In this document: positions 41,801 through 63,042 of the stretch, piece by piece
Numbering within the stretch: the stretch's first letter is position 1
How the letters are laid out: each line of letters starts with the position of its first letter
NCBI GenBank assembly: GCA_050575255.1
Contig: JBNZDD010013549.1
Coordinates: 880,413 to 944,412, forward strand
Length of the DNA stretch: 64,000 nt
Direction of reading: 5' to 3'
Origin: Harriotta raleighana
Lineage: Eukaryota
The notes under the pieces: model-generated
What the model was told of the DNA's origin: nothing
Databases searched by the model: none
Seen by the model: only the letters and a program-made list of their open reading frames with translations
Position numbers and translations under genes: made by a program

Positions 41801-44800
41801 TGCTTAAATTAGGAGCTTCAGGATCGGATTGATGAGCTCCAGTCTGAGTTACAAGCATATCAGACCCAAGACAAAAGTTTCAAACAACTCTGGGGAAGTT
41901 CCTTGTCAGATGAAATGGAGAATCAGACTGACATGGTTGATCAAGGTACAGCTGCAAGCTCTCAAAGCATTTGACGATCATTTGACGAATTGCAATGTTC
42001 AACCACACTCAACATACTGTTTTGGAGTGTGAAAAGTATGTCTGTATTGTAGTGTCATCAAGTTGTCACTCAATATACAAGGATAGATTATTGTAGTGTG
42101 GGCGAAGCTTTTAGGAAACATACTTCGAGTCAATATGAAAATATACTGTTTGTCCAAACCGATGTGAACTATGTATTAATGTGGAATTAATTTTAGTTTA
42201 ATTATTGTAGCAAAAAAAAATTCCCTCTCAGGGCAAAAATAAAATTTAGAAACATTTTCACAAATAAGCATTCGTCTAACTTGTTGAGCAAATTCTTTAT
42301 CGTTCTATTCTAGGACTGGAATCTGAAGAATGTAATGCATTGAATCTGAGTCTTGAGGCAGAAATGGTCATCGAGCAAATCAAAGAGCAACATCACCAGG
42401 CGTTTGATAGTTTGAAAGTCGACCTTGAAACCAAGGCAAGTAAATTGGACTGACTCAAAGCAATGTAATTTATTATTGGAGAAGGTTTGTCCACTTCAAG
42501 GCTAAAATGATTGTTTTTTCTGGGAAGTATTGTGCATTGTTCAAGCAATTGTATTCTTCGTAATTCTATTTTGATGGCTAATTAGTATTTTGGTGATCAA
42601 ATTATCTTGTCACAATGAGACGCAAAGGATCTTTGACAAAATGCATTCTTATCTATTCAAATGGCCTATTTAAGCATTTGAGTGATCCATACTTTTGATA
42701 AATCACATTTGCTTATGCAATAACTATCTTTTACAAAATATACTGATTTGCTATCATCACTGGACTTTCACATCTTGTGACAGTTTTTTTTCTTGGGTTG
42801 AAAATTGTTACCAATGTATTTTGTGCTCATATATTGTGTATTTTCTAAAATATAAAATCTCTCTGGAGTAGTGTATGATCTGGATCTTTTTCTGCATTTT
42901 TTTTCCAGGTACATTTTTACAAGGCACAAATAGAGGAGACAAAACTCAAATATGAAACGGAGGAAAAAACTATCAAACAGAAGTGCAAGGAAGATATTGT
43001 CCAAATGGAAAAACAAATAGATGATCTCAAAAGCCATATTTCCGAACTCCGAGAAGAGACCAAGTACGTTAAAATGCTGCAGGAAACCACTAAATGCAAG
43101 TGCGAAGAAGAGAAACGGGCAGTGCAGGATTGGTTTCACGAAGAGAAACGTCAAATGCAGGAACAATTCAAGCAAAAACTCGAAGAAACTCTCAGGATGA
43201 AGTTAGAGGAAGAGAGAAGGTGTTTTCACAGAGAGAAAGAAACGCTGTTGGAGAAGCAGAAAAGTGCTGAAATGCAAATGGCGGCCCAAAAAACAGAACT
43301 GACACAGACATTCCTACAAGAGCGAGCTGAGCTGCTGCAGGTCTACGAAGCACAGATGTCTGAGATCGAGCAAAACCTGACGCAGGAGAAAGAGGAGGTG
43401 CAAAGGGATCTCCTGGCAGAAAAGCAAAAGGAGCTTCTTGCGCAAAGGTGAGGCCCTTGTAACTGGCATCCAAGGCCTAATAGATTTAGAAAGTTAATCG
43501 TGAATCATAGGGAGGAATACATGAGTGTATTTCTTCCTCTTTGGGACTGATTTGAAACAAATACATTAGCTTTAGGTTAATAGTTATCTTATGAATCCAA
43601 CAAAATTAACCTATTGTAATGTAGAAATGTCAGTCTGTAAACTTGAGTAACGTTTTCTTGCCCGACTGTTGAATTTTCTGATCGAGGGTCAAACGGCTCC
43701 AATTCCACTGTTTAATTGGAAAAAAAGAACTGAAGCAATGTGCGGAGATTCGGGACGATCTGGCTAGTTTATAAGAGAAATGTGTCCACAAAACATACAG
43801 TCAATCCATTTTACAGTATTAATAATATAATAAATAAATATAATAATAATAATGCTTGCATTTGATATAGAGCTTTTTATATCTTATCGATGTTCCAAAG
43901 CGCTTCACAGAATATACTGTTTTTGTGGGCGGAACGCGGCAGCCAATTGCGCACAGCAGCGTCCCACAAACAGTCATGGATTTAAATTACCAATTTTATT
44001 CTTGTGGGTTTTTTTGGAGGGATTACAATTTTTACAGTATATTCTGTGAAGCACTTTAAGATGTCTCAACAACTTGATAAGGCTCTGTATCAAATGTAAC
44101 GATTATTATTGTCATTTATTCCCAGTGGATTTGCTGGAATGACACTGATTTAAATTATTGAAATATTTAAAGCTCACAGGAGTGTCCAGAACGCCCAGCA
44201 TTCGATGACAGCATTAAATTCCTGGCCGCATAACATAACACTGCATAGGATATTTCTTTCAGATAATGGTTTGCTTCTTGTATTGTAATAAAAAATTGTT
44301 TATTTTTTCTAAAAAGAGTAATATTTGTGACATTTCATCACGTAGGAAAAACATGGAGAACGATTTTAAACAGAAGATTTCAGAGATGGAAGCCCACTAT
44401 TCTAAAGAACATCAAAAAATCATGCTTAAACTCAAATCAGAAAAGTCTGAACTTGAGCAGAAATATCAACAAGAAATTATGGAACTCCGCGATCAGCTCT
44501 GGGAAAAGAAAGGTCAGTGGGAATTTGAAAAGGAGGAGATTCTACAGGAATACGAAGAAGAAAAGGAGAGTCTAAAGGATGCGTTGGAAAACAAAATAGC
44601 CCTACTTTCTTATACGATAGCCCAGGAGAGGGAACTTGTGGAAAAATTGGGAAAAGAAGAATTGAATAAGTTTGCTTCTGAAAACCAGCAGCTGCAGAAA
44701 GAAATTACGGAGTTACAAGCCTCTACCTCCAGGAGAGAGAACAAGTTGTCAAACGAACTGATTTGTCTGAAAAGGGAAATGGAGGCACAATTACAAGTGA

Positions 44801-47800
44801 AGGACAAACAGTTGACTGAGGCTGAGGGGAAGTGGGAGCAGTTGAGGGTATTGCTTGAGAAGGTAAGAGCAGAATCTGAAGAGGAGAAAGCAGCACTGGA
44901 CTTGAGGAAACAAAGCTTGGAAGAAACGAATCAGGCGATGATGGAAGAAGCAGAGGCTTCTGCACAACCTCACATGTCGCTGGAAGAATTTGAGAGGGAG
45001 CGAGCTGAGATGAGAGCCGAACTTTCCAAACCGCAAGAGGCGGCAAAAGACGCGCTCAAGAACGCGGTGGCCCTTTGCGACGTGCAGAAAATCAATGAGG
45101 AGTTGTTGAGGGAAAATCAAGCGTTGGATCGCAAGATCAGCCAACTGCAGGAGAAGGCACAAGAACTGGAAAAAGAATCTCTGCTTCTCGCAGAACTGAA
45201 AATTGCTCACGAGGGAGTGAAAAGGGAGAACGAGGAGATGGGCGCTGAATTGTTAGAGCTGCAGGAAAGGACTAAAGATTTAAAAGGGAAAGCATTGGCA
45301 CTTGCCAGCCGACAAAATACCATTGAAATTCTTACAAACGAAAAGGCAGAAATAGGGAAACAAAATGTAGAGCTGCTGGAGAAAGCTAAACGGTTAGAGG
45401 AGAAAGTAATTCTTCTGACCAACATTGGGAAAGTACAGCATGAGTTTGAGAAAGAAAAAGCACAAAGAAATTCCGAGAATTTGAGCTTGAAAGAGAGGAT
45501 AAGGGAATTGGAAGAAAAATCCAGGGAACTCTTAATCCTTCAGACCACTGTAGAACTGCATCAATCCCAGAAGGCAGAAATAGTGAGGCAGCATCAAAAA
45601 CTCCAAGAAAGGTCGAATAGGTTGGAAGAGAAGCTTGTGTTTTTGACGGATTTAGAAAAGACACATGTAGAGCTTGAGAGAGAAAGGTCGGAAATCGTTG
45701 CAGAGAACGTCAGTCTGAAGGAGAGAACGAAAGAGTTGGAAGAGAACGCTTTGTCCATTCTAGCATTGCAGAAGAAGAATGCTCACACCGAGAGAGAAAA
45801 TGTTGAGTTGAAGGCTGCCATGGCTGAGTTGCAAGCACAATCTACTGAGATGGAACGCCAGGCTAGAGTCAACAGGTAATGGTCACGTTTGGCCTGTGAG
45901 TTTTCAGTAAATTTCCTGTCAATCGTGAGAAGCTATTTTGCTGTGTAAAAAAAAATATATATATATTTTTAGTTGGCTAAAGTTTACAATTAACAATTTC
46001 ATTTCTAATGCTTTTTCCTTCCAAAAATGCATGGACAGCTGACTTCTGCTGTGAGATGTGGTAAGCCTGGAACCAATAATGGGTTGAGGTGGTGCATTTA
46101 TTTTTGCATCATGCCTTTGTGGTGTCTGAATGCTTGAAATGGTTTCTGTTTTGATGTTGTTGTTGAACGCAAAAGGCTCAAAGTAAATGCTTGGACATTC
46201 TGTTCTGAATAAAAATTGCTGCCAACATCATTATGAATGTCAATCGCGCTTTCATTCCCCCAAATTTGATTCATTGAGGGCAAAAGTCGGTAGCGGGTCA
46301 TTAATCAGATGTGTAGTTTCACTGAACCTGACGTAAAGCAAGACGAGTCTCTGTAAGATCACAGCTATTTCTCAAAGGATAATTGTTGATTAGACAAGAG
46401 TGTGTAAAAACCATTAAGTTGCAAAAATTGGGACAACCTTCTGGCATTCCTAAACTCATTCCTTTCTCTATATAAACAACGTTTACTCACGACTTTGAAT
46501 AACATGAGCACTCCCCTCTCCCCCCCCTCCCACCACCCCCAACCTCAGTACCCCCCACCCCTCAGGCCATCAACTTGTATTTTGCTAAATGGTGTTTATT
46601 TGGGGGGTTGGGTGGGAAGGATGTTAATACAGGGAATGGGTACTTTATCTCAGTAAGAAAACGAGGGAAAGCAGTTGATGAATGCTAGTGCTTATGTTAA
46701 ACTGCGCAAGAAAAAATAAGAGTGGGAATATTATGGAATATGTAAAATGCACCACCTTTTTGTGGGTTTCATCAAGCATGTCAGAAAGGTGATGTTCATT
46801 CCTCGTCATTGAGTGAAATGCACCATTGCATGCCTGATTGTCTCTGTCTGACAGTCTTGCATGATTTCTTTGTTCACCTATTTGTTGACTTGCATGTTCA
46901 TCTCTTTCCCCACCCCCAAGTTGTCGTCCGCCGTTACATTTTATTGCTGAACTAAATTGTTTGTTTATCCTCGAGGGTTTCATGTAATAAACATTTAGCG
47001 ATATCTCAACCATACCCTTTGCATCTCCCCGTGAGTGTCTTTCGGTGTGCACACATGTGCATGAAAATGCTACAAACGCAACCTGAATTTGGATATTCTT
47101 GTACGAGTTGCACTCAGTTTGCATGAAGCATTTTAGTTTTCGATTCATCAAATTACGTGCAGCAGACTGGCTTCGTCACCTGACCATGTTTAAACCTGTT
47201 CTTGCAACGTTCTTTCTTGCACAGTGGTGAAGCTGAAGAGCTCACTGAGAAATATGCCACCTTGCAACGTAAAATGGAAGAGGAAGGAAATTTTCATCAG
47301 AAAGTAACGGAAATGAATAAAGCGCAACAGGAATTAATGTAAGTTCTTGGAAACACTCATGAGACAGCGTAACATTCGTAATACTGTACTCATATTTGGT
47401 GATTAGTAGCTTGCATTTAGCACAACAACTTTATACCTTTCAAGCTACTGTACAGTACTTGCATTATTATCAAGCTGAATACAAACTTACATGGGTTTCT
47501 CGTTTTACAGGCAACAGGGGGAGATTTTAAAGGCTGAAAATATGACTGCTCAGAGAATTATAGAAATGCTGAACAAACAGGTACGTTCTTCATGATTTCA
47601 GAAAATGTCAAACTTTCAGAAGTTTCAAAGATCAGTTCCTGCTGTATTGTCGACAACATACCACTTGGATGAACTGAGCAATTTCACGTAGCAGGATCCT
47701 GATCATTGTATGAACTGTAAGCTGTGCTTTTTGTTAATTTAAAATGCTTTATCAAGCGCTTTGAGACGTCGATAAGATGTGGAAAGCACTATATAAATGT

Positions 47801-50800
47801 AAGGATTATTATTATTTATTATTATTACTGGATGATGATGATATGATAAATTCATCATTGAACAGGCCTGCTCCTGCTTGGGGAGTCCTGATTCTGTAAT
47901 GTTACTAATTCTCATTTTAAGTAGAATAATGCAGTGCTGATATTAAAATGTAGGTCACTTGTTGGGTTTAGAAATATTTTTAATCCATGGTCCTGTGCAA
48001 CCGAGGGATTAATAATGAAACTCAGTGATAATCTATTTGCAGATATTGGCAGTGTTAAAGTGATTAACAGAGGAAAAATTTAGGGCAGGGTGCCTATAAT
48101 CTTGGAATTAAAACTGATTGTGTGAGAAGGCATTAATCTTTTTTGGTCATTTGCTGATATTAACTCCCCCAAATGTCTTGATTATTTTTTAAGAAAGTCA
48201 GGTATAGACTGTTGCCTAAACATCCTATAAACTGCGACTTCAAAAATCGTGAAGTATTATGCTGTTTTTGTTTGCTGTTTCCGGGGACAGTATTAAACAC
48301 CCTGGTTTGAATTGCAGCAGATGTTGTGACTTTTAACTGCTTTCCATATCTGTTGGTGCGCTTGCTAAACTGACTGCCGCCCCGACCGTTCTCAAAAACC
48401 TTTGTTCCAAATTGTACCCCAAATCAGATGGCGGAGACAAGATCCCGCACTCGGCAGCTGGATGCGGAGAATGAGGACCTTTGCCAAAAAAACTCTAAGA
48501 ATCAAGCTGACTTGCAGGATCTGAACCGCCGGCTCACTGATCTTCTGCGACAGAAGGAGAAAAAAATGGATAGGCAGCTGCTCGAAGAGTGGGAGCAAGA
48601 AAAATCCCAACTAGTGAAAGAAATGGAAAACAGCCGAATCGAGGTAAATCTTTGTGATGACTGCCTCCTAACCAACCACAGTGGCCCTAATCGTTCAGTG
48701 ACTTTTGAACGCTTCATATCGAAATCAAAATTACTAATCGGCATTTACGATACCCATTTTGTGCTGCTGGGAGTATTCATTACAGTTTGACTGCATTTTC
48801 AGTGAAGAACTGAGGGTGAGGGAGAATATTTCCATATAGCTTTCCTCCTATTTTGCAACTGAAATTGCTTCTCAACAGAGAGACTCTTTCAGCCAAAAGG
48901 GTGGGATAATGTGGCATAGCTTTCTGTCCTCTGTGGGTGTATTTGTTGCGGATCAGATAGTCTGTTTATACTCTTCTTTCTCTTGCGGATGCTGCACATT
49001 ATCATCCAGCGACGCTCTGAATGAAAACATAGCTTTGGGTGTGTTGGCAGTCATGACGTTACATGTACATCTTGCCTATTTCCGGACAGTCATCCGCTCT
49101 TGTATCGGCTTTGGAGACCGATTTGTCTGAAGTGGAGCTGAAGAATCACCTGCTGGAACAGGACAAGCTTCTCCTCAGACAACAGCTCGAAGATGTGACG
49201 TTTCAGGTAGAGACGACTCGCCAGTTGATAGTACATAATACAATTCAGTGTTGATAATGATAAATCTAAGTAAACCTTTTTAAAAAATAAAAACTGTCAC
49301 AAGTCTGCCAGTACTTTATAACAACATGTTTAATTGAATATCATATTTTTGGAAAAGGATTTGTGTGCTTTTTCTTCATGTGATTTGAAGATGCTGCCAA
49401 GCCTTCATATTAGTAACTCGAGAGTCCTTTTGCACAAAGCAGTTCTCTGCTTATTTGATATTGTGAGAATATTTGTTTGATGAAAGACACCGGAATTGTT
49501 GTTGTTTAGTTCAGATATTAATTCACTGGTTTCATACAGTTACATGAAGTGATGATGCATAGTTGTTGACATCCTTAGTGTTCTTAAATGGCTTCTGCAT
49601 TGATGTAGATATAAAATGAACTTCTTCTCTCTCAATAAGCTGAACAGCAGTTTCTTGTTTCTCCAGTTATCCGAGTGTAATGAGCTGGAGAGTGAGGTCA
49701 CTTCTCTGAAGAGTACGAATGAAAAGTTAATACAGGAGAAAGAAACATTAAGTGAGGAGGTGAACCGCTGCGTTGAAAGGGTATGGAAGCACATTCAATA
49801 CTAATTGGTAGCTGTTAATCGCCTTTTATCGTTTGTTTTAGATTGAATAGGTAGCCATCGCCATCTAACTCGGATCCACAAATGCTTCTTATTATACATC
49901 CAGATAGCCAAAATGAACATCACGGAGTTGCAGATAATCGGTTTGAGACAAGAGCTGCAAGCTTTGCAACAACAAGTCGAGGAGTTGACTACGCAGCTGA
50001 CAACGTCACAAGAAAAGGTATTGCGGTATCTTAAGTTATATTTTGCCCGCCTCTTCAGCACCCTCAACGCAGCTCTCTTAATTGTGAAATCATTAAAATC
50101 TCTACTATAAGAGACACCCCTTTATGTAGTTTCGCCGCGTTGACTTTTCAACTCTTTAATCAGACCTAATTTTCCATCCTAAATTTTGCTATTCAAATTT
50201 GATCCTCTTGTCCTATCGCCCAGATCAAGAGGCTGGACGAAACCTTACAAAGTGCTCATCTCCAGGCAGCCCGGCGTAAGTCAGACTTCCGCGTCGCACA
50301 ACAGGAGAAGGAGGCCTTGAAACAGGAAGTGGTGTCATTGCACAAAGAACTTCAGACCACCAAAGATGAGGTACAATGTGACATCGATTCTGCTTGATCT
50401 CATCACGTGTAGCCTGCAACATTTCAAATGAGGCCGAAACTGTTCCTTGGCAACCGCATTGCATTTGTAGAGCGCCTTTCGCGTCGGGAGGACGTCCCAA
50501 GGCGGTAAAACCAACCTGAGCTCGTGAACATTTGCTCAGAAGAGCAAAATCTGAAACCCGATGCTTCCCAATTAAAAAATACAACAATCACTTGTACAAT
50601 AGTAGCAATACTCAAGCATCCATTGTTGAGAGGAGGTCAATGGTCAATTGGTCAATGCTCCCAATTTTGTGGGTGAGAGCTTCTCATTTCTCATCCGTTA
50701 ATGCGGATTGTACGCTCCTGCTTGGGATTCTGCACTCGGTTAGTTGCAGGTTTCAGTGACGCTGTCAGAACACACTATTCCACAGGCAGGAACAGACAGT

Positions 50801-53800
50801 CAAAGGATGAGGCATTTGAAGATGCTTCCATTCCAGTTAAGCAGCCGGTCACAGTATTGTCGTAGAACTAATGCTCTTCCAGAGTTTCCTTCAACAATCT
50901 TCTGATTTTCAAATAAGATCATGATATCTTTCTTATTAGAATCAGGTGCTAAAGCTGAACCTGCATTCTGTGGACTTCCAACACAATCATAAGAGGCTAT
51001 ACCGGGATGACCTGGCTCGGCTGGTCGAGAAGGAACAACAAATATTGAGGCAGGAGAACGAGAGGCTTCAGAGAGAGGCTCAGCACACAAAAGGAGAGCT
51101 GCAGCAGGCCCGAGAGAAGGTAACGAAGAAAGCACCTTCAGACTTCAACATGAATTGCTTTGTATCTTGGAGGAAGACTGTGACTGCGTCTCATTTCTAG
51201 CAGCCATTGCCATCTAACTGAATGAGCACGTCTAACTAGAAAGTAGAAGTGAAAAAAACCCCCCAGCAAAGTTACATTTGTATATAAACACATCCATCTA
51301 AGTAGCCCACTGAAAACAGAGGCCTCTTTCATCTTTTAGACATGGGTTCAAATAACCATTTGTCTTTCGAGGAGCAAGGTTGCAACCAGGCCTATAGAGG
51401 ACTGCTCTATAGAAAAACATGGGCAGCTTGTTTGCACACAGCAGTGACCCAACCAATGGACTGAATAATTCAAAGCGTCAAGAGATTTGGTTGATTTGGT
51501 GTGGGTTAAAAGAGGAGCCCTGTAGCTCAGTAATTAGAGCTCTTGTCTTGCAAGTGTGAGACCTGTGTTTTCAATCCAGGCAGATCAGGGCGAAACCTTG
51601 AGCATGTTTCCTTACTCCACCCGCTTAACAATAAGCCGTCCCCAAAAAACTTGGTCATTTTAATCCATGACCATTTGTGGGACACTGCTGTGCGCTATTG
51701 GCTGACGCGTTTCGCCCTTAAATACGCAGTCAATTCACTTTACAGTATATTCTAGGAAGCGCTTTGAGACGTTTAGAAGACGTGAAAAAGCGCTGTATCA
51801 AAATGCGAGGATAGTCGGATGCACAAATCCCACGTGAAGTTTCAGTAGAACATGTTTTTGTTTAAAATCAATACTTTGATGAAAAATTTACCGGGAAGAA
51901 CAATATTATTTTCTCGTTTTGACAGATCAAATATCTAGATTCTGCACTTCTCACCCTCAAACAGCAGAAACACTACAATAAATCTGCCATGGTCAAAGCT
52001 GCTGAACAAGAGAAACTCAGCCTGAAGAGAGAATGTGACCAGATTCAGAAAGAACTATTATCAGCCAACAGGAAGGTAAGGCATAAGATTAATAGAGGAA
52101 AGATTGTTTTCCTCTCTAGGAACATCCAATTAGAAGGGAAGGGAGGCAAGAGAGTTAGGAAGGAAACGTGCCTGCATTTGAGTTAAGATTTGTCTCTGAA
52201 TAGATGAATAGAAAATAAATGAAATCTTTATAAAGTGTTGATGGAGCAATAACTCTGGAAGAAATTAATATCAAGAAAGGATTCTTTAAACAAAATAGAG
52301 GCTGCTCAAGGTCATAAATAGTGAGCTCAAGTAACCTCTATTCAACGGTAGCCTATCTGCCCTCAATCCGAATCCAGTCTAAATATCATGCATAAATGAA
52401 ATATTGAGTAGAGTCTACATGTGGTCCTGAAACTGCATTCATTCTTCTGCTAGATGGGCTCACTCGAACAGGAGCTGGAAATCCTCAAAGTAGAGAATGA
52501 AATGCTGCAAAACACCCAGGCCATCCTGAAGAGCCAGTTGATGGAGACTCGTGATCAGGTACGTTGGGTAAAACTGAAAGAAATTTGTGATCAAATGATG
52601 TTCTATTTATTTGGTATTCTTGAGCTCCCCATTGTTGCTCTTCTGCGAGACCAGCTAACACAACACTGACCAGACATCAAATCTAAGACAACAACAACAA
52701 AATTACATTTATAGAGCACCTTTCATGTTGGGAGGACGTCCCAAGGCGCTGAATCCATTGGCTCGATATCAAACTTAGCTATGCATTTATGTGACTTACA
52801 AAAGTCACATAAGTCACTTTGGAGAAGTGTTATGTTGGCTATTTTCTGGTCAGGATGAGCAGAAACCAAACATTTGTTTATAGTCTTTAGCTCTTCTTTC
52901 TTGCACTCATTGTGTTTGTGACTGATGTGCATATAAAACAAAGTGAATTGGGTACACAATGCACCAGAAAGGTTTATTGGCCTGTAGGTTTATTGGCCAG
53001 TGGGGCTTTTCATTTCAAATACTGTAATTGCATAATCACAGTGTTTACAAGGCTGTCATTTGACTGACTTCATTGTGAACAAATAAACTCGATCAGCCTG
53101 TTGAATTTGCAATTAAAATCTTACTTAGAATTTAAGTCAATCTCGTGACATGGAAGTCATGATGTGAAGACTTCAAGGTTTTGGATTAACCTGTGCCTTG
53201 CTAAGTACAGTAGTATATTTGTAGTATTCTTTAAATGTGAGTTCTGCCCTCCCTTATCTTTTGAAACATTGTTCCTTGGAACTGTATAAAGTATGTAGTT
53301 GAAATTGTATACCTTGTAGTTGAGGAAGTTATTGTTTACGTTTACTACTTCACAACTTTGCACGTTGACTTTCCTGCTAATTTGTGTTGTTCCAAACTTT
53401 AATATATTTACCGACAAAAGCATTTGATAAATGTAGACATTGTTCAGAATGTGGCTGAAGTACGCCAGAAAAATAAATGTTTCTATGCCATCCTTCGCAC
53501 CTTAATGCAGGTTTCCAGCAGAATCCACTCAGTCACAGCAGTTGAAATTAAAGGGCAAAATCAAATAGGGAAATCTAAATAAGATAGAAATAATGAAAAT
53601 CCATAGCAGACCTTTCAGTGTCTGAAAGAAATAATAATCCTTGCATTTTGATGTAGCGCCTTATCAAATTTTGTGTTTCGCCCACAAATATACAGTCAAT
53701 TCACTTTACAATTTATTCTGTAAACTCAATTTATTTTGAGACTTTTAGAAGACATGAAAAGCGCTATATCAAATGCAAGGATTATTATTATTATCAGGTA

Positions 53801-56800
53801 TCAACGGGCTTCACAGAATATACTGTAAAGTGAATTGACTGTTTATTTTGGGGGAAAACATGAAAGCCAATTGTACACACCAGTATCCCATACACAGTCG
53901 TGGATTTAGTGATCAATTTATTAAAAAAATGTATTATCACTCCCAGAAAAGCAAGACAACAATCGACTAACAACCGGGTTCTGACTGCTAGGTAAACAGA
54001 GGCGTTGTGGAGTAAGGAAACTTGCCCAACATTTTGCCCCCTGGGAATCAAACCCAGGTCTCTCACTTGCGAGGCGAGTACTCTAACCACTGAGCTAGAG
54101 GACGCCACAAAAGGGTGACCTTTGATCAGTTTTCAAAGCGTGCAGGGTAGAAGGGGATAAGCTGTGATTCAGTGAAGACGGTTGTTTGGCCTAGAGAGGA
54201 AATATCGTTGTGTTCTTTTTATATCTGACAAGGGAAGGAAGATTGCGTCAGTAAAAATGCATTATGAGGGAACCATCTGTATTAACTGACAGGAATGCAA
54301 GGCAAGATCTCCCCAGTTGTATGTTTAAGTGTCATCTGGAATGTGATATGCTGCCGTTCAGGTCTAACTGGCTGATGTTTTTACACACGCTGAAGTCAGT
54401 CATCTTTTCAAAATCTCCTGGAAGATAACAACTTAATGCTCAAATAATGGGATTTACAATGTGATTCCAGAGTGGTCTAGCCATATATCAGTTGGACAGG
54501 AAAAGTTTGTTCAAGCAAACAAGGATATGTTAGTTTGTTCTATGGATTGCAAGTCTATCACTTCTTCTGATCTAAAATATGACAGCTTTATGTTATATCT
54601 TGTATAAAGCTGACTCTAGTCATGTATAAAACAAACTGTTCTCAGGACCTCAAAGAACTGTTGAACTACAGGCTTCTTAAGAGTCTGCAGCGGAGAAAGG
54701 CGACAGCGGTGGCTGCTACTTTAGTCTGTATCAGACATCACAGCTGACATTGCTGCAGCTGGCTGTGGTTTGACTGTTTATGCTCAAAGCAGAGTTTTTC
54801 ATGTGATTCCATTCCACGTATCTCCTTGTTCTAATGCTACTTCAGTAATCCCAGTAATGCTCAAAAACAACTTCACAATAAATGTGGTTCAATAAAATGA
54901 ATTGAAAGTCAGAACAGCCTGACTGTACTTTTTATAACTCTAGAAAAACCTTTTGACGCTTTTCACGTGTCACTTTTAATATTTTACTTTAGTATGTGTT
55001 GTTGTGAGCCTTTGATTTCATTTCGGTTTCTGACCAGGCTTCTAAATTTAGGGCCTTTTCAATTATGTCTTTATTATGGTTCATTTCCTGCACCACAGTT
55101 ACTCTTTTAGGGCTGTAAATGTGGCATGAATGTCATAATATTCAGCCAATAAATAGCACAGCCTTCCAATAGCAGCCCCAAGGAAGTACCCTTGTATCTG
55201 AAGCATATTCAGTGCCAGATTATGAGCGATACCATAAATACATCACTATAACTACCAGTGCAAATTCACTCCAGTTATATTTGGCTCCGCAATTTAGGCA
55301 GTCACAATAATCTCAACAAATTGCATCTGTATTGCGCCCTTCAAGGGAGTAATGTCTCGGAGTGCTTGAGTGGTTTGACTTTTGAGCAGGAAAGGGAGGG
55401 GAGTTGACCGAAGGTAGTCAAAGAGTCAAATCTTCTGGTGTGATTTGAACATGCAGTGCTACTCTGTGAATATGGACACCCGAGACCATATGAACAGATC
55501 TGTAAATGCGCATTAATGGTCCAGAACACACAGAAAGTATAAGCTGGCCAGGATGTATTTAATGTATCTCGTATACATTTGCCAAATTGATATAACAGGG
55601 CATCTGTTTGAGTCCGCAGTATTTCTTGTGATTTAGCAATACTGACTTATTGTGGGGACTGCTTTGCCTATCTCTTTAACCCCCCCCTTTCCCTTGCTCC
55701 ACCTCTTTCCCTTCCCCATCCCCCCACCCTTTCCCTTGCTCCACCTCTTTCCCTTCCCCATCCCCCCCCACTTCCCTTGCTCCACCTCTTTCCCTTCCCC
55801 ATCCCCCCCCCCCTTTCCCTTGCCCATCCCACCTCAGAATCCATTGTGGTGCGTAGACAAATATTTTACTCGGAACAGGTGAATGTTGTCGGTGAATCGA
55901 ATGCTTTTCATGTAGCTACAAGAGAATTTGTCAAGTTTTCTATTGTTAAAATCTGGAATAAAAACTGATCCTAAAGGTGTGGCCAAATGATACTTCGGGC
56001 ACCTCATCGTTTTAAAAGTGACTGATTTGCGCAAACGTTTGATCCGAGTTATTAATTTCCTTTTCCTTCATATTAAGCTGCTACATGCAAATTCGAGCCT
56101 GACGTTTAGCCAGTCCCAGAATATCCGTGAGCTCCAGCAGCTGAAAGAACAGGTCTGTAGCATGGTCCCACAAGAGCAAGTAGCACAGCTCCAGCAACGT
56201 CTGAGCCTTGAGGAAGTGCAGAGTCGCCAACTGCAAGAACAACTGGACAAACATACCGCTGACCGCAACACACAGCAGGTAAGGAGCATTCCAAGTGAGA
56301 AGTGCCCAAGCCTCCAGGCCTATTGTAGTGGGTATAGTAAAAATGCAAGCAATCGCAAAACTGTGACAGTACTGTAGTGTTGACTATAATAGTGCAATTT
56401 TGATACTTGTTTAACACTCTTTTTCTTTGTTGGTCATGTAAACACTACAAAAACTCTCCTTTCATTATTTGCTTGTTCTTTTTTCTTTACATGCAGTTGT
56501 CGTTTTTTGTAGTTGTAGTCTGGGATATTGTGAGTCAATTCTGAAAAAAACTACAGGGTGAAGTGTACCACTTGCATTCTTTCCATGTAGGCCTTACTAC
56601 TGGACCAGCGAGCTGTGCATGCTGATACCTACAGAAGGATTGGGCACTTGTGAAGGCTTTGACAGTACACAGCAGTTTCTCATAAGTAGCCAGCAAAAAC
56701 TATTGTCGTTGGTTATGCATTGGGTGGGGGAAGAGAATAGTGTTCTAAATTATTTTTTAATTTATTATGTTCTTGGTGTAGAAATGTACTTTAATAAAGC

Positions 56801-59800
56801 TGTAATGTAAGTTCATGTGAAAAGAAATTGATAAGTGTAATATACATTGTTAAAATTTATTTAATGTAATATTTAACTTTTCTAGCATTATAGATATGGG
56901 GTACTTTTATGGATTGTACATCAAGGTTTATAATTCCACATAAAATACACTAATTTAATTCTGTTATTTCAATTTCTACTGTTTGTTGTATCCCTAAAAT
57001 CCGGGCAGTAAAGTATCATTGACAGTATTGCTGCAATATGGATGATTGATAACATGCAAAATCCATTCACACACATTCCTTTTTTTTACTCTGTGCATTT
57101 TAGGCTTTAACACTATATTTTCTGTCTCCAACAAATTCATCACAGACCCACTGCCTGAATTGAAAGATCACACTGGACTTTTCTATGTAGTTATTTATGG
57201 TTTCCTGATTTGTCATGCATTGTCTTTTTTTGTTATACCTTTGTTTTGACAATAAATTTGTAATTTCTAATTAGTGTGTGTTTTGATATTGATACTACAA
57301 CTGAGTATAGTTTTTTTATGAATCATCAACTCCTCAGTGAAAATGATGCACGTGAAATTGCTGTAAAATGTTGATTAGCAACATTTCTCTGTTTGAACAA
57401 TAGTAAAGGTTGATTCCATCTCTGCTGTTCTAAATGGCACTGTGAGGCTGCAAATCTCCAGATTGCGGTCTAATTAATAAAGGCACAATATCCCTATTAT
57501 TCACTGAATAAACACAGACGTTATCATTTACCGAGAGGAATTTATAGGTACTCTAAATAATGTACTACAACAACAAAATTACATTTGTAGAGCGCCTTTC
57601 ATGTCGGGAGGACGCCCCAAGGTGCTGAACAGTCAGTGGTCAGGGCTTGAGTATGGTTTGGTGGGGTGGGGGTACAGGGTTGGAATAAGGGAGGGCAGAA
57701 GCCAGATGGTAGCTGACGGCATGGTTGAAACAGAAGGTCGTATGACTGGCCTAGAAGGAGGCAAGGGAGGGAGCAAGGCAAAGGGATTGTGGGATGAATA
57801 ATTGACAATGAATGAAAATCATTACTTAGTTACATAATTCATAAATCCTTTATTCCTATTTATAATATAATTTCCTCTCTTTATACATATTTATGTGTAG
57901 CACATAATACAGCAGTGCTTATGTACTGTTAATACATAGCAACTAATAGATCTCCATTGTTCCCTTGTTAATTATATTAACAATTATATAATTATCCCTT
58001 GTTAATTATAACTTTTGCTTTGTTGGTTTTGCACTGATAGATCGTTGTAATATTTCCTCATGTCGATTTCAGTTTACCAGCTATCTAGTTTGTTCAGAAA
58101 CCACGCATTTTTTTTGTTATACATTTTGTTTTGACATTAAATAAGTAATTTCTATGTTTTGTGTGTTTTGATGCTGTAATGTAGTTGTCCCATTTGAACA
58201 TTTGCCTGACAGTATAGCTTTTACTCCTTACACTACCAGTTCACTGTTTTGGGTTTACCAGTTGGACTTTCCCCATAGTATGATTGTGCCACAGCCCAAT
58301 CCCTAGTTGAGAAGCTAAGCAGCAAGGCATTCTGTTCCATATCTCTGTCAATTCCACCGTGTATTCCACTACCAAAAGGTGTATGAGAACAGAGATAGGT
58401 GATCAGCCCTACTTTATCCTTCTTTTCCCCTTTCTGTGCTTTGAACTGAATTTTGATTGTTTGATAATCTATGCCTTACCATTCCATCATTGGAACATAA
58501 CTGCGAAGACTTTGGCTATTAACATTTATGTACTTAAAATTAGATCCATTGTTGATCACAATTCTTACTTCAAGATATCCTCCGGCTTTGATTTTTTTGT
58601 CATAATCAATCACAAGCCACATGAATATTAGTGATAGCTATAAATTGTGCTTGTATATATCTTGGACAAACTGAAATCTTGTGACTGGAGTTTTTGAATA
58701 AAAGAAAAAATCAACTCGCAGATACTAGATCCTTAAGGCATTATTACTACTAAGGCTTAGTTTATGTACACGGGATCTAAGATTTACATCAACTGTTTTT
58801 ACACAATCAAATAGTTATTTTCAACCAGCTGATACATTACAGTACTGACATGACAGATGTCCAAATGTTTTTGCATACCACAGGCCTTGTGCTCACTATA
58901 CTATTTGCAGTAATTTGCTATGTTGCACATTTCTTCAATGTTTGCCACTAAAGTACAATGCTACTTTGAATTAATGTAAATGTGTGCAAAGCTTATTTAT
59001 TTCCTCCACTGTCTTTTTACATAACCATTTGACAAGCACTAAAAATTTTGAGATATCTGCTATGGATCCTTACCAATGTATTTATCTGCATAAAAAGGTG
59101 CAAGCTAATTGTGTTTTTGCTTTGCCTATGAAATCACATTTGACTATTAACTCAGCTGAATGCTTCAAGTAACTATTTTGCTTCATTACTTCATTTGCTT
59201 CATTTTAAAATCCTTTGGAGACCTTTATTTTATTTGAAAGGTGCTATATAGATAATTTTTTTGTGTATTCTATGTGTTGTATATCTTTTTGAAATACATT
59301 GCCAAGCAAAATATTTTTATTAATACCTCCAGTTCCTCCCCAGATTAGGGCTGAATCAATTCCTTATGCAGTTTGCTTTCTTTCTGACTAAACAGAAATC
59401 AGTCTAATAAATATTTTGCTTTCAGGAAGGATATGAACAACTGTTGAAAAGGACAGAAAGAATGCAAGATGTTGAAAATAAACTGAGGAATGTTAAGTTA
59501 CATCTTCAGGACAAAGTCAATCAATTGAAAGAACAGGTATGTTCACCGTATGTTACTAACTGAACATTTGTTTCAGCCACAATACAAAAGCAGCAATGCC
59601 CATTTAACAAACAATAGAGTGTAGTAACATTGTACAAAGGTGTGATTAGTATACAACAAAGTTCCTGTAATGCATTAATTTAGTATTAAAGTAAGATTGT
59701 TTCTTTGAACAAAGGAAAAATTTTCATAACAGAATTTTGCTTTACAGTTGTCAAAGAATATTAAAGCAGATGAAATGATCAAGGACTTGTATGTTGAAAA

Positions 59801-59960
59801 CGCACAGCTACTCAAGGCACTGGAGATATCTGAACAGCGGTACAAGACAACTGAGAAGAAAAATTACCTACTTGAAGAAAACATTGCAGGCCTTAATAAA
59901 ATTCTCAAGGACCGATCAACATCATCACTTTCTGCTGCCTCAGCTCGTTACTCAACCTAA
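9202..59960 (+). CDS. NIN: Ninein (centrosomal EF-hand/coiled-coil microtubule-anchoring protein, dynein adaptor), full multi-exon gene, about 1940 aa
   Basis: join(9202-9384,16458-16551,20409-20572,29579-29624,30408-30598,34629-34775,35569-35736,35924-36060,36524-36664,40016-40190,40626-40736,40912-41001,41813-41945,42314-42435,42909-43447,44346-45875,47225-47338,47511-47580,48428-48643,49090-49206,49667-49780,49904-50017,50224-50370,50940-51119,51926-52075,52454-52558,56078-56278,59426-59536,59748-59960) = 5823 nt with compatible phases. The N-terminus MDEAEQDKYEARLKEVFDSFDTTGTGSLGQEELTDLCHML and C-terminal KDLYVENAQLLKALE match vertebrate ninein as I recall it. Confidence 0.95.
9476..10015 (-). 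mobile_element. CR1-type LINE 3' fragment (RT C-terminal region and TTCTTATG tail)
   Basis: Minus-strand ORF WSPYLKKDVLALEGLQRRFTRLVPGMRGLTYEDRLNKLGLYSLEYRRIRGNLIETYKILKGLD; (CATAAGAA)n at the left end. Confidence 0.9.
16458..16551 (+). CDS. NIN: NIN coding exon 2 (VHFEQFKEALILILS...QEP)
   Basis: TTTCAG| acceptor, CAG|GTACGG donor, phase 0-1. Confidence 0.92.
17951..18002. repeat. 14-bp tandem repeat, about 3.5 copies
   Basis: (GAGACTCAGGAGTT)n. Confidence 0.9.
18640..18870 (-). mobile_element. Degenerate L2-type LINE fragment
   Basis: Minus-strand translation SPILTRLH...IDFNILTLAYKTLHILSPPYL, typical L2 ORF2 C-terminal motif. Confidence 0.7.
19750..20180 (+). mobile_element. Older tRNA-derived SINE (DeuSINE-like core); related inverted copy ~29838-30270
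   Basis: Head TAGCACTCTCGCCTCTGAGTCAG...GAGTTCAAGCCCCAC, core GAGATGTTAAACTGAGGCC...AAGATCCCA, L2-like tail. Confidence 0.6.
20409..20572 (+). CDS. NIN: NIN coding exon 3 (QPKYVKDGKRYGRRTAPEFQDSVEEF)
   Basis: CCACAG| acceptor (in-frame alternative 9 nt downstream), GAG|GTAGGG donor, phase 1-0. Confidence 0.9.
25730..25945 (-). mobile_element. SINE fragment, same family
   Basis: Reverse-complement body. Confidence 0.72.
28412..28652 (+). mobile_element. SINE, 5'-truncated, same family
   Basis: GGGCGAAACCTTGGGCAAGTTTCCTT...GCGCTATATCAAAT. Confidence 0.8.
29579..29624 (+). CDS. NIN: NIN coding exon 4 (NWKTSADQGEEYEAEG)
   Basis: TTTAG| acceptor, AAG|GTAAGA donor, 46 nt, phase 0-1. Confidence 0.88.
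30408..30598 (+). CDS. NIN: NIN coding exon 5 (QLRFWNPDDLN...QNVDTE)
   Basis: TTCCAG| acceptor, GAG|GTAAGA donor, phase 1-0. Confidence 0.93.
30718..31003 (-). mobile_element. tRNA-derived SINE, same family
   Basis: Reverse-complement copy. Confidence 0.82.
32050..32368 (+). mobile_element. L2-type LINE 3' end
   Basis: Pyrimidine-rich body (CCTTCAGCC...CTCTGGAACTCCCTTCC), stem-loop tail GTGAAGCG...CACTATATAAAT and (GTT)n terminus. Confidence 0.7.
33428..33716 (-). mobile_element. tRNA-derived SINE, same family
   Basis: Reverse-complement copy from the (ATA)n tail to the GAGCTATAGGACTCC head. Confidence 0.85.
34232..34563 (-). mobile_element. tRNA-derived SINE, same family
   Basis: Reverse-complement full-length copy. 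Confidence 0.85.
34629..34775 (+). CDS. NIN: NIN coding exon 6 (VLEELV...SASTPYRQLKRHHSLQ)
   Basis: TTATAG| acceptor, CAG|GTAATT donor, 49 codons. Confidence 0.92.
35569..35736 (+). CDS. NIN: NIN coding exon 7 (PFDESGRRT...GLEILK)
   Basis: ATTAG| acceptor, AAG|GTATAT donor; duplicate copy at 37884-38051. Confidence 0.92.
35924..36060 (+). CDS. NIN: NIN coding exon 8 (TLDFGPDGKVNLTELTLALENELL...EIRHL)
   Basis: TTCCAG| acceptor, |GTAAGT donor, phase 0-2; duplicate at 38239-38375. Confidence 0.92.
36524..36664 (+). CDS. NIN: NIN coding exon 9 (EWVDQVLREKEKL...MASEVDDHHAAIER)
   Basis: TTTCAG| acceptor, CCG|GTATTT donor, phase 2-2; duplicate at 38839-38979. Confidence 0.92.
39296..39551. mobile_element. 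Tc1/mariner (Tigger-like) non-autonomous DNA transposon remnant
   Basis: Right end GTTAAGCGAGGTTCCACCG-TA resembles a Tigger-type TIR plus TA target site; internal repeats of TAAGCGA; CpG-rich relative to flanks; left TIR decayed. Confidence 0.5.
40016..40190 (+). CDS. NIN: NIN coding exon 10 (KLEQEHRERLAALK...RDRLALSLK)
   Basis: TTACAG| acceptor, AAG|GTGAGA donor. Confidence 0.92.
40626..40736 (+). CDS. NIN: NIN coding exon 11 (ENSRLERELLEN...ILKEK)
   Basis: CAAAG| acceptor, AAG|GTAGCT donor, 37 codons. Confidence 0.9.
40912..41001 (+). CDS. NIN: NIN coding exon 12 (FGDLDPTSAEFFLHEER...QCR)
   Basis: TTACAG| acceptor, AGG|GTAAGT donor. Confidence 0.92.
41813..41945 (+). CDS. NIN: NIN coding exon 13 (ELQDRIDELQSEL...)
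   Basis: ATTAG| acceptor, AAG|GTACAG donor, phase 0-1. Confidence 0.88.
42314..42435 (+). CDS. NIN: NIN coding exon 14 (LESEECNALNLSLEAEMVIEQIKEQH...LETK), GC donor
   Basis: TTCTAG| acceptor; phase requires the AAG|GCAAGT donor. Confidence 0.88.
42909..43447 (+). CDS. NIN: NIN coding exon 15 (VHFYKAQIEE...ELLAQR)
   Basis: TTCCAG| acceptor, AAG|GTGAGG donor, phase 0-2; contains ORF 43005-43451. Confidence 0.92.
44346..45875 (+). CDS. NIN: NIN large coiled-coil cassette exon (equivalent of mammalian exon 18), 1530 nt
   Basis: CGTAG| acceptor, CAG|GTAATG donor, phase 2-2, length divisible by 3; inside ORF 44266-45879. Confidence 0.92.
47225..47338 (+). CDS. NIN: NIN coding exon 17 (GEAEELTEKY...QQEL)
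   Basis: GCACAG| acceptor, |GTAAGT donor, phase 2-2, 114 nt. Confidence 0.85.
47511..47580 (+). CDS. NIN: NIN coding exon 18 (QQGEILKAENMTAQRIIEMLNKQ)
   Basis: TTACAG| acceptor, CAG|GTACGT donor, phase 2-0. Confidence 0.87.
48428..48643 (+). CDS. NIN: NIN coding exon 19 (MAETRSRTRQLDAENEDLCQKN...SRIE)
   Basis: AATCAG| acceptor, GAG|GTAAAT donor. Confidence 0.88.
49090..49206 (+). CDS. NIN: NIN coding exon 20 (SSALVSALETDLSEV...)
   Basis: GACAG| acceptor, CAG|GTAGAG donor. Confidence 0.86.
49667..49780 (+). CDS. NIN: NIN coding exon 21 (LSECNELE...NRCVER)
   Basis: CTCCAG| acceptor (in-frame alternative at 49640), AGG|GTATGG donor. Confidence 0.83.
49904..50017 (+). CDS. NIN: NIN coding exon 22 (IAKMNITELQ...TSQEK)
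   Basis: ATCCAG| acceptor, AAG|GTATTG donor. Confidence 0.88.
50224..50370 (+). CDS. NIN: NIN coding exon 23 (KSDFRVAQQEKEALKQEVVSLHKELQ)
   Basis: GCCCAG| acceptor, GAG|GTACAA donor. Confidence 0.9.
50940..51119 (+). CDS. NIN: NIN coding exon 24 (...EQQILRQENERLQ...QAREK)
   Basis: TATTAG| acceptor (in-frame alternative at 50946), AAG|GTAACG donor. Confidence 0.87.
51514..51811 (+). mobile_element. Full-length tRNA-derived SINE with L2-like tail
   Basis: tRNA-like head (TAGCTCAGT...GTTTTCAATCC A/B boxes) and tail GCGCTTTGAGACG..AGAAGACGTGAAAA.GCGCT; shared with more than 10 copies in the window. Confidence 0.85.
51926..52075 (+). CDS. NIN: NIN coding exon 25 (EQEKLSLKRECDQIQKELLSANRK)
   Basis: TGACAG| acceptor, AAG|GTAAGG donor. 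Confidence 0.9.
52454..52558 (+). CDS. NIN: NIN coding exon 26 (MGSLEQELEILKVENE...TRDQ)
   Basis: TGCTAG| acceptor, CAG|GTACGT donor. Confidence 0.87.
53800..54107 (-). mobile_element. tRNA-derived SINE, same family
   Basis: Reverse-complement copy with head CCACTGAGCTAGAGGACGCC. Confidence 0.8.
55680..55830. repeat. ~39-bp pyrimidine-rich minisatellite, about 3.5 copies
   Basis: Unit CCCCCCCCTTTCCCTTGCTCCACCTCTTTCCCTTCCCCAT. Confidence 0.9.
56078..56278 (+). CDS. NIN: NIN coding exon 27 (LLHANSSL...MVPQEQVAQLQ...NTQQ)
   Basis: ATTAAG| acceptor after pyrimidine tract, CAG|GTAAGG donor. Confidence 0.88.
56591..56653 (+). CDS. NIN: NIN alternative terminal (neuronal-type) exon, ALLLDQRAVHADTYRRIGHL*
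   Basis: TTCTTTCCATGTAG| acceptor, phase 0 compatible with the exon ending 56278, TGA 56651-56653, AATAAA at 56793. Closely resembles the mammalian alternative NIN C-terminus as I recall it (ALLPEQRAVHADSYRRIGHL). Confidence 0.85.
   Translation, partial: ALLLDQRAVHADTYRRIGHL
59426..59536 (+). CDS. NIN: NIN penultimate coding exon (EGYEQLLK...QDKVNQLKEQ)
   Basis: TTTCAG| acceptor, CAG|GTATGT donor. Confidence 0.9.
59748..59960 (+). CDS. NIN: NIN last coding exon (LSKNIKADEMIKDLYVENAQLLKALE...ARYST*)
   Basis: TTACAG| acceptor, TAA stop at 59958-59960. Confidence 0.92.
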   Translation: MSKNIKADEMIKDLYVENAQLLKALEISEQRYKTTEKKNYLLEENIAGLNKILKDRSTSSLSAASARYST

Positions 59961-60970
59961 CATGTTATATTATTTAGATCATGAACGATAAAGTCCAAAG
60001 AAGGACATGTTTAGAAACACTTTTGCACTTTAATACAGTACTGTACTTTAAATATTTCTTTAGCAAGTGCTTGCTTTTTCCTGGACTTCTGAATGTTTTG
60101 AGAATTGCAAAATGAAATAAAAGTAAATATTGTTCTAACTTTAACAGTATTGCCTTCAAAACACTGGTATACGTCACCACTCAGTATTTAAGGATGTATT
60201 CAACAATCTGATGTGAAGGAGAGTTACTTTTTAAGAGACTTATGAGGGAAAAGTTTTTTTATATAAAGCTGTCTTTTTTTAAAAAAAGGATAAAGAGTTA
60301 GATGTGTTTTGATTTGTCTTTAAACATTCTGTGTAGGCCAAAGATGAATGTGACTGGAACAAAGCCAATTAAAATAGTTTTTGTGATATTATTGTGAGGA
60401 AACAAGTACATCTGTAGCTGGAACTAAGGCCTACTTTTCCTTTTATACAACTCAGTTGCAGAATATTCTTATTGATAATTTAAAAGTATAATATGTTTTA
60501 AATAGCTTGTATCGTTTATGCATTTAAGTGTGGAACACTGACAAAAAGGCAACACTATCTTATCAAAGAATTGTAAATACTGAGTTTTTATTTGAGATTA
60601 TACTATGCAGAACAATCAGATTAAACCTGTGACAGTATTTGCATTTACATTTACACTTGTGTAAAACCAGCTGCCATGTGGTGCTTTAAGATGTATCATG
60701 CTGCCTAAAATGTAATTGTTCCTGTAAAAATGTTATTTGTCTTGAATACAGAACACAACATTCATACCTCCATATTGAACATAGCAGTATGGATAGATGC
60801 AGGTCATGTTTGCAAGCCATAAATATATATGTTAACCCACGCATCTTATGCCTGGCTGATCAATGGGGTGCTTGGAAATATCATTTGCTTAAAGCAATGG
60901 TTGTAAAATTATGTCTGAATAAAAATTAGAATTTGTGTTAGAAATATTGATGTTATGAAGAAATAAATTT
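59961..60970 (+). other. NIN 3' UTR with candidate polyadenylation signals
   Basis: AT-rich region with no recognisable repeats; AATAAA at 60116, 60918 and 60962. Confidence 0.55.
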
Positions 60971-62537: not shown

Positions 62538-63042
62538 ATATAAGAACACAAGAATTAGGAGTAGGCCATTCGGCCCCTCGAGCCTGCCCTGCCATTCAAT
62601 AAGATCATGGCTGATCTTCTGACCTAACTTTAATTACCTGCCCTATCCCCATATTCCCTAATCCCTCTGTTTTTAAAAAAAATTCTATCAGTCTCAGCTT
62701 TGAAAATGTTTCCTCAACTCTGTTCTAGAAGGCTGACCCATAATTTTCAGACTGTGACCCCTGGTTATAGATTCTCCTACCAGGGGAAACAGTCCCTACT
62801 TTATCCAGCCCTTTAAGAATCTTATATGTTTCAATAAGATCTCCCACTAATTCTTCTGTACTCCAGAGAATACAGCCCCAGTTTATTCAACCTATCCTCA
62901 TAAGTCAGTCCCCTCATCCCAGGAACTAACCTCGTGAATCTACGCTGCAGCCCCTCTTAAGGCAAGTACGTCCTTTTTTAAATGAGCAGACACCATAAAC
63001 TGCACATCATACTCTAGGTGAGGTCTCACCAAAGCCCTACAC
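62538..63042 (-). mobile_element. CR1-type LINE 3' fragment, same young family as 9476-10015
   Basis: Long near-identical stretches to the 9.5-10.0 kb copy (e.g. AATACAGCCCCAGTTTATTCAACCTATCCTCATA) with an internal deletion. Confidence 0.88.

What the first reader, a model, noticed from the sequence alone, without database searches (positions are those of the whole stretch)
56591..56800. Hidden alternative terminal exon: neuronal ninein C-terminus apparently conserved in a distant vertebrate
Seen: inside the 3.1-kb intron before the last two exons lies a phase-0 exon (acceptor ...TTCTTTCCATGTAG) encoding ALLLDQRAVHADTYRRIGHL-TGA, followed by AT-rich UTR-like sequence with AATAAA at 56793. It is missing from the ORF track. 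Established: mammalian neurons switch NIN to a non-centrosomal isoform by including a short late exon that replaces the centrosome-targeting C-terminus and by skipping the large central exon. Inference: this 20-mer is nearly identical to the mammalian peptide as I recall it, and better conserved than neighbouring coiled-coil exons. That suggests a dedicated short motif under strong selection. The predicted neuronal isoform here is about 1343 aa.
Basis: partly seen in the sequence, partly recalled or inferred. Interest (0 to 1): 0.72.

Follow-up and report, generated by a model that had tools for sequence, protein, structure and literature searches.

The report
Ancient alternative tail of vertebrate ninein
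This chimaera-type fish's ninein gene, which makes a microtubule-anchoring protein, has a second last exon that swaps the final 107 amino acids for a 20-residue tail almost unchanged in sharks, birds and a mammal; it is an already catalogued isoform rather than the known neuron-specific one, and the tail's end likely acts as a docking or degradation signal.

Summary
The exon is real. 56591-56653 follows a normal acceptor in phase 0 and encodes 20 residues plus stop. The same tail ends 28 stored ninein proteins: 11 from cartilaginous fishes, 16 from birds, 1 from buffalo (16-19 of 20 identical). A contig from a close relative joins it to the upstream exon, on a short overlap. It is not hidden: Callorhinchus milii and shark annotations carry it, and it is the mouse ISO2/ISO3 last exon, expressed in macrophages and centrosomal (PMC12135376).

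The 'neuronal' label is mostly wrong. The mammalian neuronal 61-nt exon 29 is a different exon, one step upstream; it shifts the frame and stops translation before this tail (human isoform 6). No exon-29 counterpart was detectable in this window. The AATAAA at 56793 is disrupted in the relative, whose contig runs past it.

Two points were not found in the papers searched. The tail is conserved across jawed vertebrates, and it ends in R-x-x-G-x-x, the CRL2-APPBP2 C-degron pattern (untested). The tail switch may also predate exon 29. The scan's earlier notes hold no ninein finding. Ordinary orthologue with one testable idea.

The parts
56591..56653 (+). Coding part of the NIN alternative last exon: 20 codons + TGA, phase 0; orthologue of the mouse ISO2/ISO3 terminal exon
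   Evidence: junction contig in run X1
56571..56590 (+). Polypyrimidine tract and acceptor AG of the alternative exon
56633..56650 (+). Last six codons (R-R-I-G-H-L), matching the R-x-x-G-x-x C-degron pattern of APPBP2; function inferred, untested
   Evidence: 28 of 28 tails, 0 of 163 other ends; pattern from PMC10614623
56616..56621 (+). TGCATG (RBFOX-type motif) inside the exon; the only one between 47121 and 64000; also inferred in the crow exon
56654..57006 (+). Alternative 3' UTR, minimum extent seen in a relative's contigs; true 3' end not mapped
   Evidence: X1 records 2 and 3
56793..56798 (+).
56078..56278 (+). Shared upstream exon (model exon 27, 201 nt) whose donor chooses between 56591 and 59426
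59426..59536 (+). Canonical penultimate exon, replaced in the tail isoform
59748..59960 (+). Canonical last coding exon, replaced in the tail isoform (107 aa together with the previous exon)
52559..56077 (+). Intron in which amniotes carry the 61-nt neuronal exon 29; no counterpart detected here
44346..45875 (+). Large central exon (1530 nt, frame-preserving), counterpart of mammalian exon 18; skipped in two annotated Narcine isoforms

Best explanation
56591-56653 is the alternative last exon of ninein (NIN), orthologous to the mouse ISO2/ISO3 terminal exon: splicing from 56278 to 56591 instead of 59426 replaces the last 107 residues with a 20-residue tail and a different 3' UTR, and the tail is likely a short binding motif whose end is predicted to be a CRL2-APPBP2 C-degron or docking site. 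Shown: exon anatomy, reading frame, orthology from chimaeras to a mammal, and use of the junction in a relative's contig (short overlap). From papers: the mouse form with this tail still reaches the centrosome, and the CEP250-binding region (human 1933-2096) is only partly removed. Inferred: the switch trims the CEP250-anchoring end and adds a free C-terminal motif that tunes ninein turnover or partner binding. My odds for the APPBP2 part alone are about 0.3. Inferred: this exon is older than, and separate from, the amniote neuronal exon 29, which stops translation upstream and leaves this exon as untranslated RNA.
For: 28 of 191 stored proteins over 1000 aa end in this tail at the same junction; selected without using the last six residues, all 28 end R-R-I-G-H-L. 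X1 contig: its first 27 letters match the end of exon 27 at 23 of 27 places versus 9 of 27 for the intron, then it runs on through 56589-56726. The mouse switch has the same geometry: an acceptor in mid-intron, 20 aa replacing residues 2007-2113, i.e. 107 aa, and a mouse primer reads N-T-P-Q-A-L across that junction. None of the 38 proteins with an exon-29 peptide carries the tail, and 0 of 47 chondrichthyan proteins have an exon-29-like end. The best exon-29 profile score in the window intron is 24, against 97-105 for true members, and 29 of 60 shuffles reach it. R-x-x-G-x-x is a stated APPBP2 substrate class (PMC10614623); the chance of the pattern in any of four registers is about 0.7% from ninein residue frequencies.
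Against: The junction contig has under 31 letters on the exon side, below the tool's own bridging threshold, and is not listed among the joints; the run is only guessed to be RNA and is from a relative about 91% alike. The degron match was noticed after the fact among many known terminal motifs. It explains only 6-7 of the 20 conserved residues. GFP-ISO2 was expressed and centrosomal in macrophages, with no instability reported in the section read. Third codon positions are also alike between this fish and crow (11 of 16 codons for identical residues, 5 of 7 fourfold; no baseline measured), so part of the constraint may act on RNA. Absence of exon 29 rests on similarity to amniote peptides; a diverged version would be missed. 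No amphibian or teleost ninein with either ending was retrieved (only 120 of 293 hits were listed). The window has Leu at position 4, where all 28 others have Pro.
Confidence: 0.82

Rival explanations
1. One reading: in cartilaginous fishes, which seem to lack exon 29, this last exon together with skipping of the large exon is the neuronal, non-centrosomal switch (1343 aa), and amniotes later added exon 29 on top.
For: No exon-29 counterpart here. The large exon is frame-preserving and skipped in Narcine isoforms X5/X6. 5 of 16 bird tail proteins are short forms of 1329-1380 aa. PMC6429586 describes a neuronal 'exon 29a' replacing '29bc'. In X1 the tail contig (depth 26.7) exceeds the canonical one (12.5), a weak hint because contig depth is a poor measure.
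Against: All 11 chondrichthyan tail proteins are long (1781-1876 aa), and the 3 short ones end canonically (annotation models, not phased reads). Mouse ISO2 is non-neural and centrosomal. The tissue of X1 and X2 is not on record. An RBFOX motif inside an exon usually goes with repression (recalled, not tested).
Confidence: 0.25
2. The sequence is conserved mainly as RNA (splicing or 3'-end control, an RBFOX site, a 3' UTR for exon-29 transcripts), and the peptide is a by-product.
For: TGCATG is kept in fish and crow; third positions are alike at 11 of 16 codons. The one substitution seen at the Val of that motif is Met, which is compatible with keeping the motif. In exon-29 transcripts the exon is untranslated.
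Against: All 5 third-position differences at codons for identical residues are silent, and the amino-acid changes are few and mostly conservative (D/E, T/S, V/M). The same DNA read in the shifted frame differs much more between fish and crow. Frame, length and stop position are the same in all 28 proteins.
Confidence: 0.12
3. A chance open frame in an intron, or an artefact.
For: It is only 20 codons long and absent from the ORF track; this gene's assembly has an artefact elsewhere.
Against: Score 87 versus 25 for the next place; annotated in 10 chondrichthyan species, birds and buffalo; junction contig.
Confidence: 0.01

Closest known systems
Mouse ninein ISO2/ISO3 (NP_032723 / NP_001273009) and human RefSeq isoform 1 (NP_891989), as described in PMC12135376
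   Same: Acceptor in the intron before the last two exons; 20-aa C-terminus replacing 107 aa; alternative 3' UTR; a mouse primer shows the tail begins A-L after the same upstream exon.
   Different: Here in a holocephalan fish, with Leu for Pro at position 4 and Asp/Thr for Glu/Ser at positions 5/13 relative to buffalo and birds. The mouse and human ISO2-type proteins themselves were not retrieved; buffalo stands in for mammals.
Callorhinchus milii ninein A0A4W3IK06 / A0A4W3IG09 and shark RefSeq isoforms (e.g. XP_067847740, XP_038634331)
   Same: Same tail at the same junction, 16-19 of 20 identical.
   Different: Automatic annotations, not discussed in any paper found; the window's species differs at position 4.
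Neuronal ninein (mouse Neuro Q61043-4; human UniProt isoform 6, 1275 aa): exon 18 skipped, 61-nt exon 29 included (Zhang et al. 2016, seen only through PMC11422218, PMC6429586, PMC12651242)
   Same: Also removes the C-terminal CEP250-binding end; same gene region; the window has the large skippable exon.
   Different: A different exon, one intron upstream, frame-shifting, with an unrelated peptide; its product lacks the 20-aa tail; no counterpart detected in the window.
R-x-x-G/C-degrons of CRL2-APPBP2 (ASCC3 type, R-x-x-G-x-x; PMC10614623)
   Same: Arg at -6, Gly at -3, two residues after Gly, free C-terminus.
   Different: Pattern match only; ninein is not mentioned in that paper's main text; binding and degradation untested.

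Membership tests
NIN ISO2-type alternative last exon | Lies in the intron before the last two coding exons and replaces 107 aa with 20 aa | tested here: met
   (1940 versus 1853 aa)
NIN ISO2-type alternative last exon | Peptide orthologous to the mammalian tail | tested here: met
   17/20 to buffalo XP_055393580; mouse primer reads A-L at the junction
NIN ISO2-type alternative last exon | Spliced to the upstream 201-nt exon in RNA | tested here: inconclusive
   One contig of a relative (X1), 23/27 letters on the exon side, under the 31-letter bridging threshold; no run of this species was listed
NIN ISO2-type alternative last exon | Own polyadenylation site within the intron | tested here: inconclusive
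   Relative's contig reaches 57006, past the 56793 hexamer, which is disrupted there; contigs cannot show ends
Neuronal NIN exon 29 (61 nt) | Cassette exon directly after the exon ending Q-L-M-E, upstream of the ~200-nt exon | tested here: not met
   The finding lies after the 201-nt exon
Neuronal NIN exon 29 (61 nt) | Exon-29 peptide with a frameshift into the next exon | tested here: not met
   Unrelated peptide; no match in 52559-56077 either
Neuronal NIN exon 29 (61 nt) | Neuron-specific inclusion, non-centrosomal product | not testable with these tools
   Tissue of the runs not on record; mouse ISO2 is macrophage-expressed and centrosomal
APPBP2 R-x-x-G/C-degron | R-x-x-G within 0-3 residues of the C-terminus | tested here: met
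   28 of 28 tails, 0 of 163 other stored ends; rule from PMC10614623
APPBP2 R-x-x-G/C-degron | Binds APPBP2 and destabilises a reporter in an APPBP2-dependent way | not testable with these tools
   No APPBP2 sequence in session; Koren 2018 not held; NIN not found in three other degron papers' supplements

The most novel reading that the evidence does not exclude
An alternative last exon kept since the origin of jawed vertebrates swaps ninein's CEP250-anchoring end for a tail ending in a CRL2-APPBP2 C-degron, so splicing sets ninein's half-life or docking. In cartilaginous fishes, which lack the amniote neuronal exon 29, this is the ancestral way to release ninein from the centrosome, and exon 29 was layered on later.
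Probability: 0.18. Interest if true: 0.65.

Novelty: new member of a known kind. Interest (0 to 1): 0.33.

Why it matters
The mouse isoform with this tail was characterised only in 2025 and compared only with human (PMC12135376). Near-identity from chimaeras to a mammal says the 20 residues do a specific job, and a 2025 review asks whether variable ninein C-termini direct binding at non-centrosomal sites (PMC12651242). The R-x-x-G-x-x end gives a cheap, concrete test. Separating this exon from neuronal exon 29 also corrects an easy confusion, and suggests that the two tail switches have different ages. Without those tests it is an annotated orthologous exon.

Tried and rejected
1. A 61-nt exon candidate at 56497-56557, suggested by an apparent likeness to a published 'exon 29a' primer: rejected. 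The primer's best ungapped matches in 52000-60500 (15 of 22) equal shuffled primers (mean 14.2, max 15), and true exon 29 lies elsewhere.
2. AATAAA 56793 as the poly(A) signal: not supported.
3. The look-up of sequencing runs: no RNA holder listed; two small-share runs were laid. X2 shows no junction contig for the exon, only an unspliced contig across it. Contigs show presence, not absence, so this is not used as evidence of tissue specificity.
4. Metagenome scan with a degenerate exon motif, to get vertebrate DNA: 0 matches.
5. PDB and Pfam with the 20-mer: 0 hits.
6. Representative-protein search with exon 27: 7 hits, none ending in the tail.
7. Zhang et al. 2016 and Koren et al. 2018 are not held.
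8. Literature: the peptide's last seven residues occur in 0 papers. None of the 15 papers listed for the search on ninein, splicing and cartilaginous fish contains 'ninein' (557 matched, 15 seen). NIN is absent from an NMD-escape paper.
9. Earlier scan notes: none on ninein.
10. No structure or complex job was run: the tail is 20 aa and no partner sequence was in hand.

Full report
Observation. The window holds one ninein (NIN) gene on the + strand. The best protein hits to exon 56078-56278 are Callorhinchus milii nineins at 88% identity, then sharks and rays at 70-79%, so the source is a chimaera-type fish. A 29-exon model gives an open 1940-aa product. It needs a GC donor at 42435 and only one copy of an exact 2314-nt duplication that flanks a single N. 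Inside the 3147-nt intron 56279-59425, an acceptor at 56589-56590 opens a phase-0 exon of 20 codons and TGA. Its pyrimidine tract is ordinary for this gene.

Conservation. Of 191 stored proteins over 1000 aa, 28 end in this tail at the same junction: 11 chondrichthyan (10 species), 16 bird and 1 buffalo. These come from capped searches; one search listed only 120 of 293 hits, and no amphibian or teleost tail was seen. Identity to the window peptide is 19/20 for C. milii, 16-18/20 for sharks and 17/20 for the birds scored and for buffalo. Against four birds, flanking exons 26-27 are 43-49% identical and the two canonical last exons 64-76%; about 8% of 20-residue windows reach 17/20. Chosen without the last six residues, all 28 tails still end R-R-I-G-H-L. 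The window alone has Leu at position 4. The exon is thus already annotated in relatives, and is hidden only from the ORF track.

RNA. No run was listed as an RNA holder; two small-share runs of a relative (about 91% alike) were laid. In X1, one contig begins with 27 letters that match the end of exon 27 at 23 places (intron: 9) and continues through 56589-56726. This is the predicted junction, but the overlap is below the tool's 31-letter bridging threshold. X1 behaves as spliced RNA: it has a GT..AG joint 59532-59744, and a contig whose loose end matches the end of exon 26 at 25 of 30 letters (read by eye), so exons 26 and 27 are joined directly there. Another X1 contig runs to 57006, past the 56793 hexamer, and both runs show an insertion inside that hexamer. 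Tissue is not on record, so the neural claim could not be tested.

Which mammalian exon is it? PMC12135376 (sections 4 and 5, passages and supplement legends read; the alignments are figures and were not seen) describes a mid-intron acceptor that gives a 20-aa end in place of residues 2007-2113 in mouse ISO2/ISO3. ISO2 is expressed in a macrophage line at about a ninth of the canonical form, and GFP-ISO2 is centrosomal. That geometry, 107 residues swapped for 20, is the window's. The neuronal switch of Zhang et al. 2016 (not held; seen through passages of PMC11422218, PMC6429586, PMC12651242) uses a 61-nt exon 29. Stored human, bird, turtle, crocodile and lizard proteins show a different 20-residue peptide directly after the exon-26 orthologue, then a frameshifted stop; human isoform 6 ends 30 residues after that junction. 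The mouse exon-29 forward primer reads V-V-G-S-S-R, part of that peptide, and its reverse primer lies in the 201-nt exon's orthologue; the ISO2-type reverse primer reads N-T-P-Q-A-L across the tail junction. No stored protein has both peptides. So the finding is not the neuronal peptide. Against a clean separation: PMC6429586 calls the neuronal exon '29a', alternative to '29bc', and its 29a primers read into neither peptide. The PMC12135376 legends also suggest that Neuro transcripts share the ISO2 3' primer site. The last exon may therefore be neuron-enriched as RNA in mammals while its peptide goes untranslated.

Exon 29 in this fish. Intron 52559-56077 holds no match. The best profile score is 24, against 97-105 for members, and 29 of 60 shuffles reach it. 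It has no TGCATG, and 0 of 47 chondrichthyan proteins have an exon-29-like end. A diverged version could be missed. The simplest reading (inference) is that the tail exon is ancestral to jawed vertebrates and exon 29 is younger.

Mechanism. Shown: an alternative 3' splice choice replaces the end of the protein and the UTR. From a review (passages of PMC12651242), human residues 1933-2096 bind CEP250, so the tail form loses most but not all of that region, which fits ISO2 staying centrosomal. Inferred: the tail is a short linear motif. Its end matches R-x-x-G-x-x, a class that PMC10614623 (passages read) names as APPBP2 substrates. 28 of 28 tails and 0 of 163 other stored ends have the pattern, with about 0.7% chance from residue frequencies. 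This was noticed after the fact, covers a third of the conserved residues, and has no direct support. I put it at about 0.3. Some RNA-level constraint is possible: TGCATG at 56616 is inferred in crow too, and 11 of 16 third positions agree (no baseline).

Novelty and score. The exon and isoform are known in mammals and annotated in sharks, so this copy is a new member of a known kind. Searches for the peptide and for ninein with cartilaginous fish (15 of 557 listings seen) found no discussion of its depth of conservation. The library lacks most subscription papers. Other papers seen as passages only: PMC13756106, PMC12221596, PMC10835012, PMC12652946, PMC13187750, PMC12976096; supplements searched only: PMC12871134, PMC10567573; section 19, passages and primer table: PMC11422218. 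Interest 0.33.

Noticed in passing
window 45876-47224 (intron after the large exon): Six TGCATG (RBFOX-type) motifs at 46028, 46827, 46858, 46891, 47058 and 47120, out of 15 in the whole window; 2 of 2000 Markov simulations reach six and the reverse strand has none. Five lie 100-400 nt upstream of exon 47225-47338, whose orthologue is skipped in a Chiloscyllium isoform. A candidate for RBFOX control of the large exon or its neighbour.
   Followed up: partly
window 34845-37158 and 37160-39473: Exact 2314-nt tandem duplication (100% identical) around a single N, repeating three NIN exons; most likely an assembly artefact.
   Followed up: yes
window 42435-42436: NIN exon 14 uses a GC donor (GC-AG intron); the frame is open only with it.
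   Followed up: yes
window 56600-56602: Codon 4 of the tail is CTG (Leu) where all 28 other tails have Pro; a species change, a polymorphism or an assembly error.
   Followed up: no
window 56533-56544; protein P0209: A stingray isoform (XP_072895929) stops three residues (S-Q-F) after the exon-26 orthologue. The only S-Q-F-stop in the window's two introns lies 47 nt upstream of the tail exon but has no AG before it. Possibly chance, possibly a ray form of early truncation.
   Followed up: partly
proteins P0111, P0119, P0120, P0123, P0124, P0163, P0176, P0177, P0179: Bird annotations hold an extra short segment between the 201-nt exon and the tail exon that shifts the tail exon into another frame or ends the protein; nothing like it was evident by eye in window 56279-56590.
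   Followed up: no
window 49090-49206 (model exon 20): Present in C. milii and bird proteins (79% and 44-46% identical) but absent from the five shark and ray isoforms compared (0-3%): an alternative or lineage-lost exon.
   Followed up: no
window 9505-10004 and 62557-62991: Inverted pair of a repeat element, 88-96% identical; further SINE-like repeats near 57561-57862 drew hundreds of contigs.
   Followed up: no
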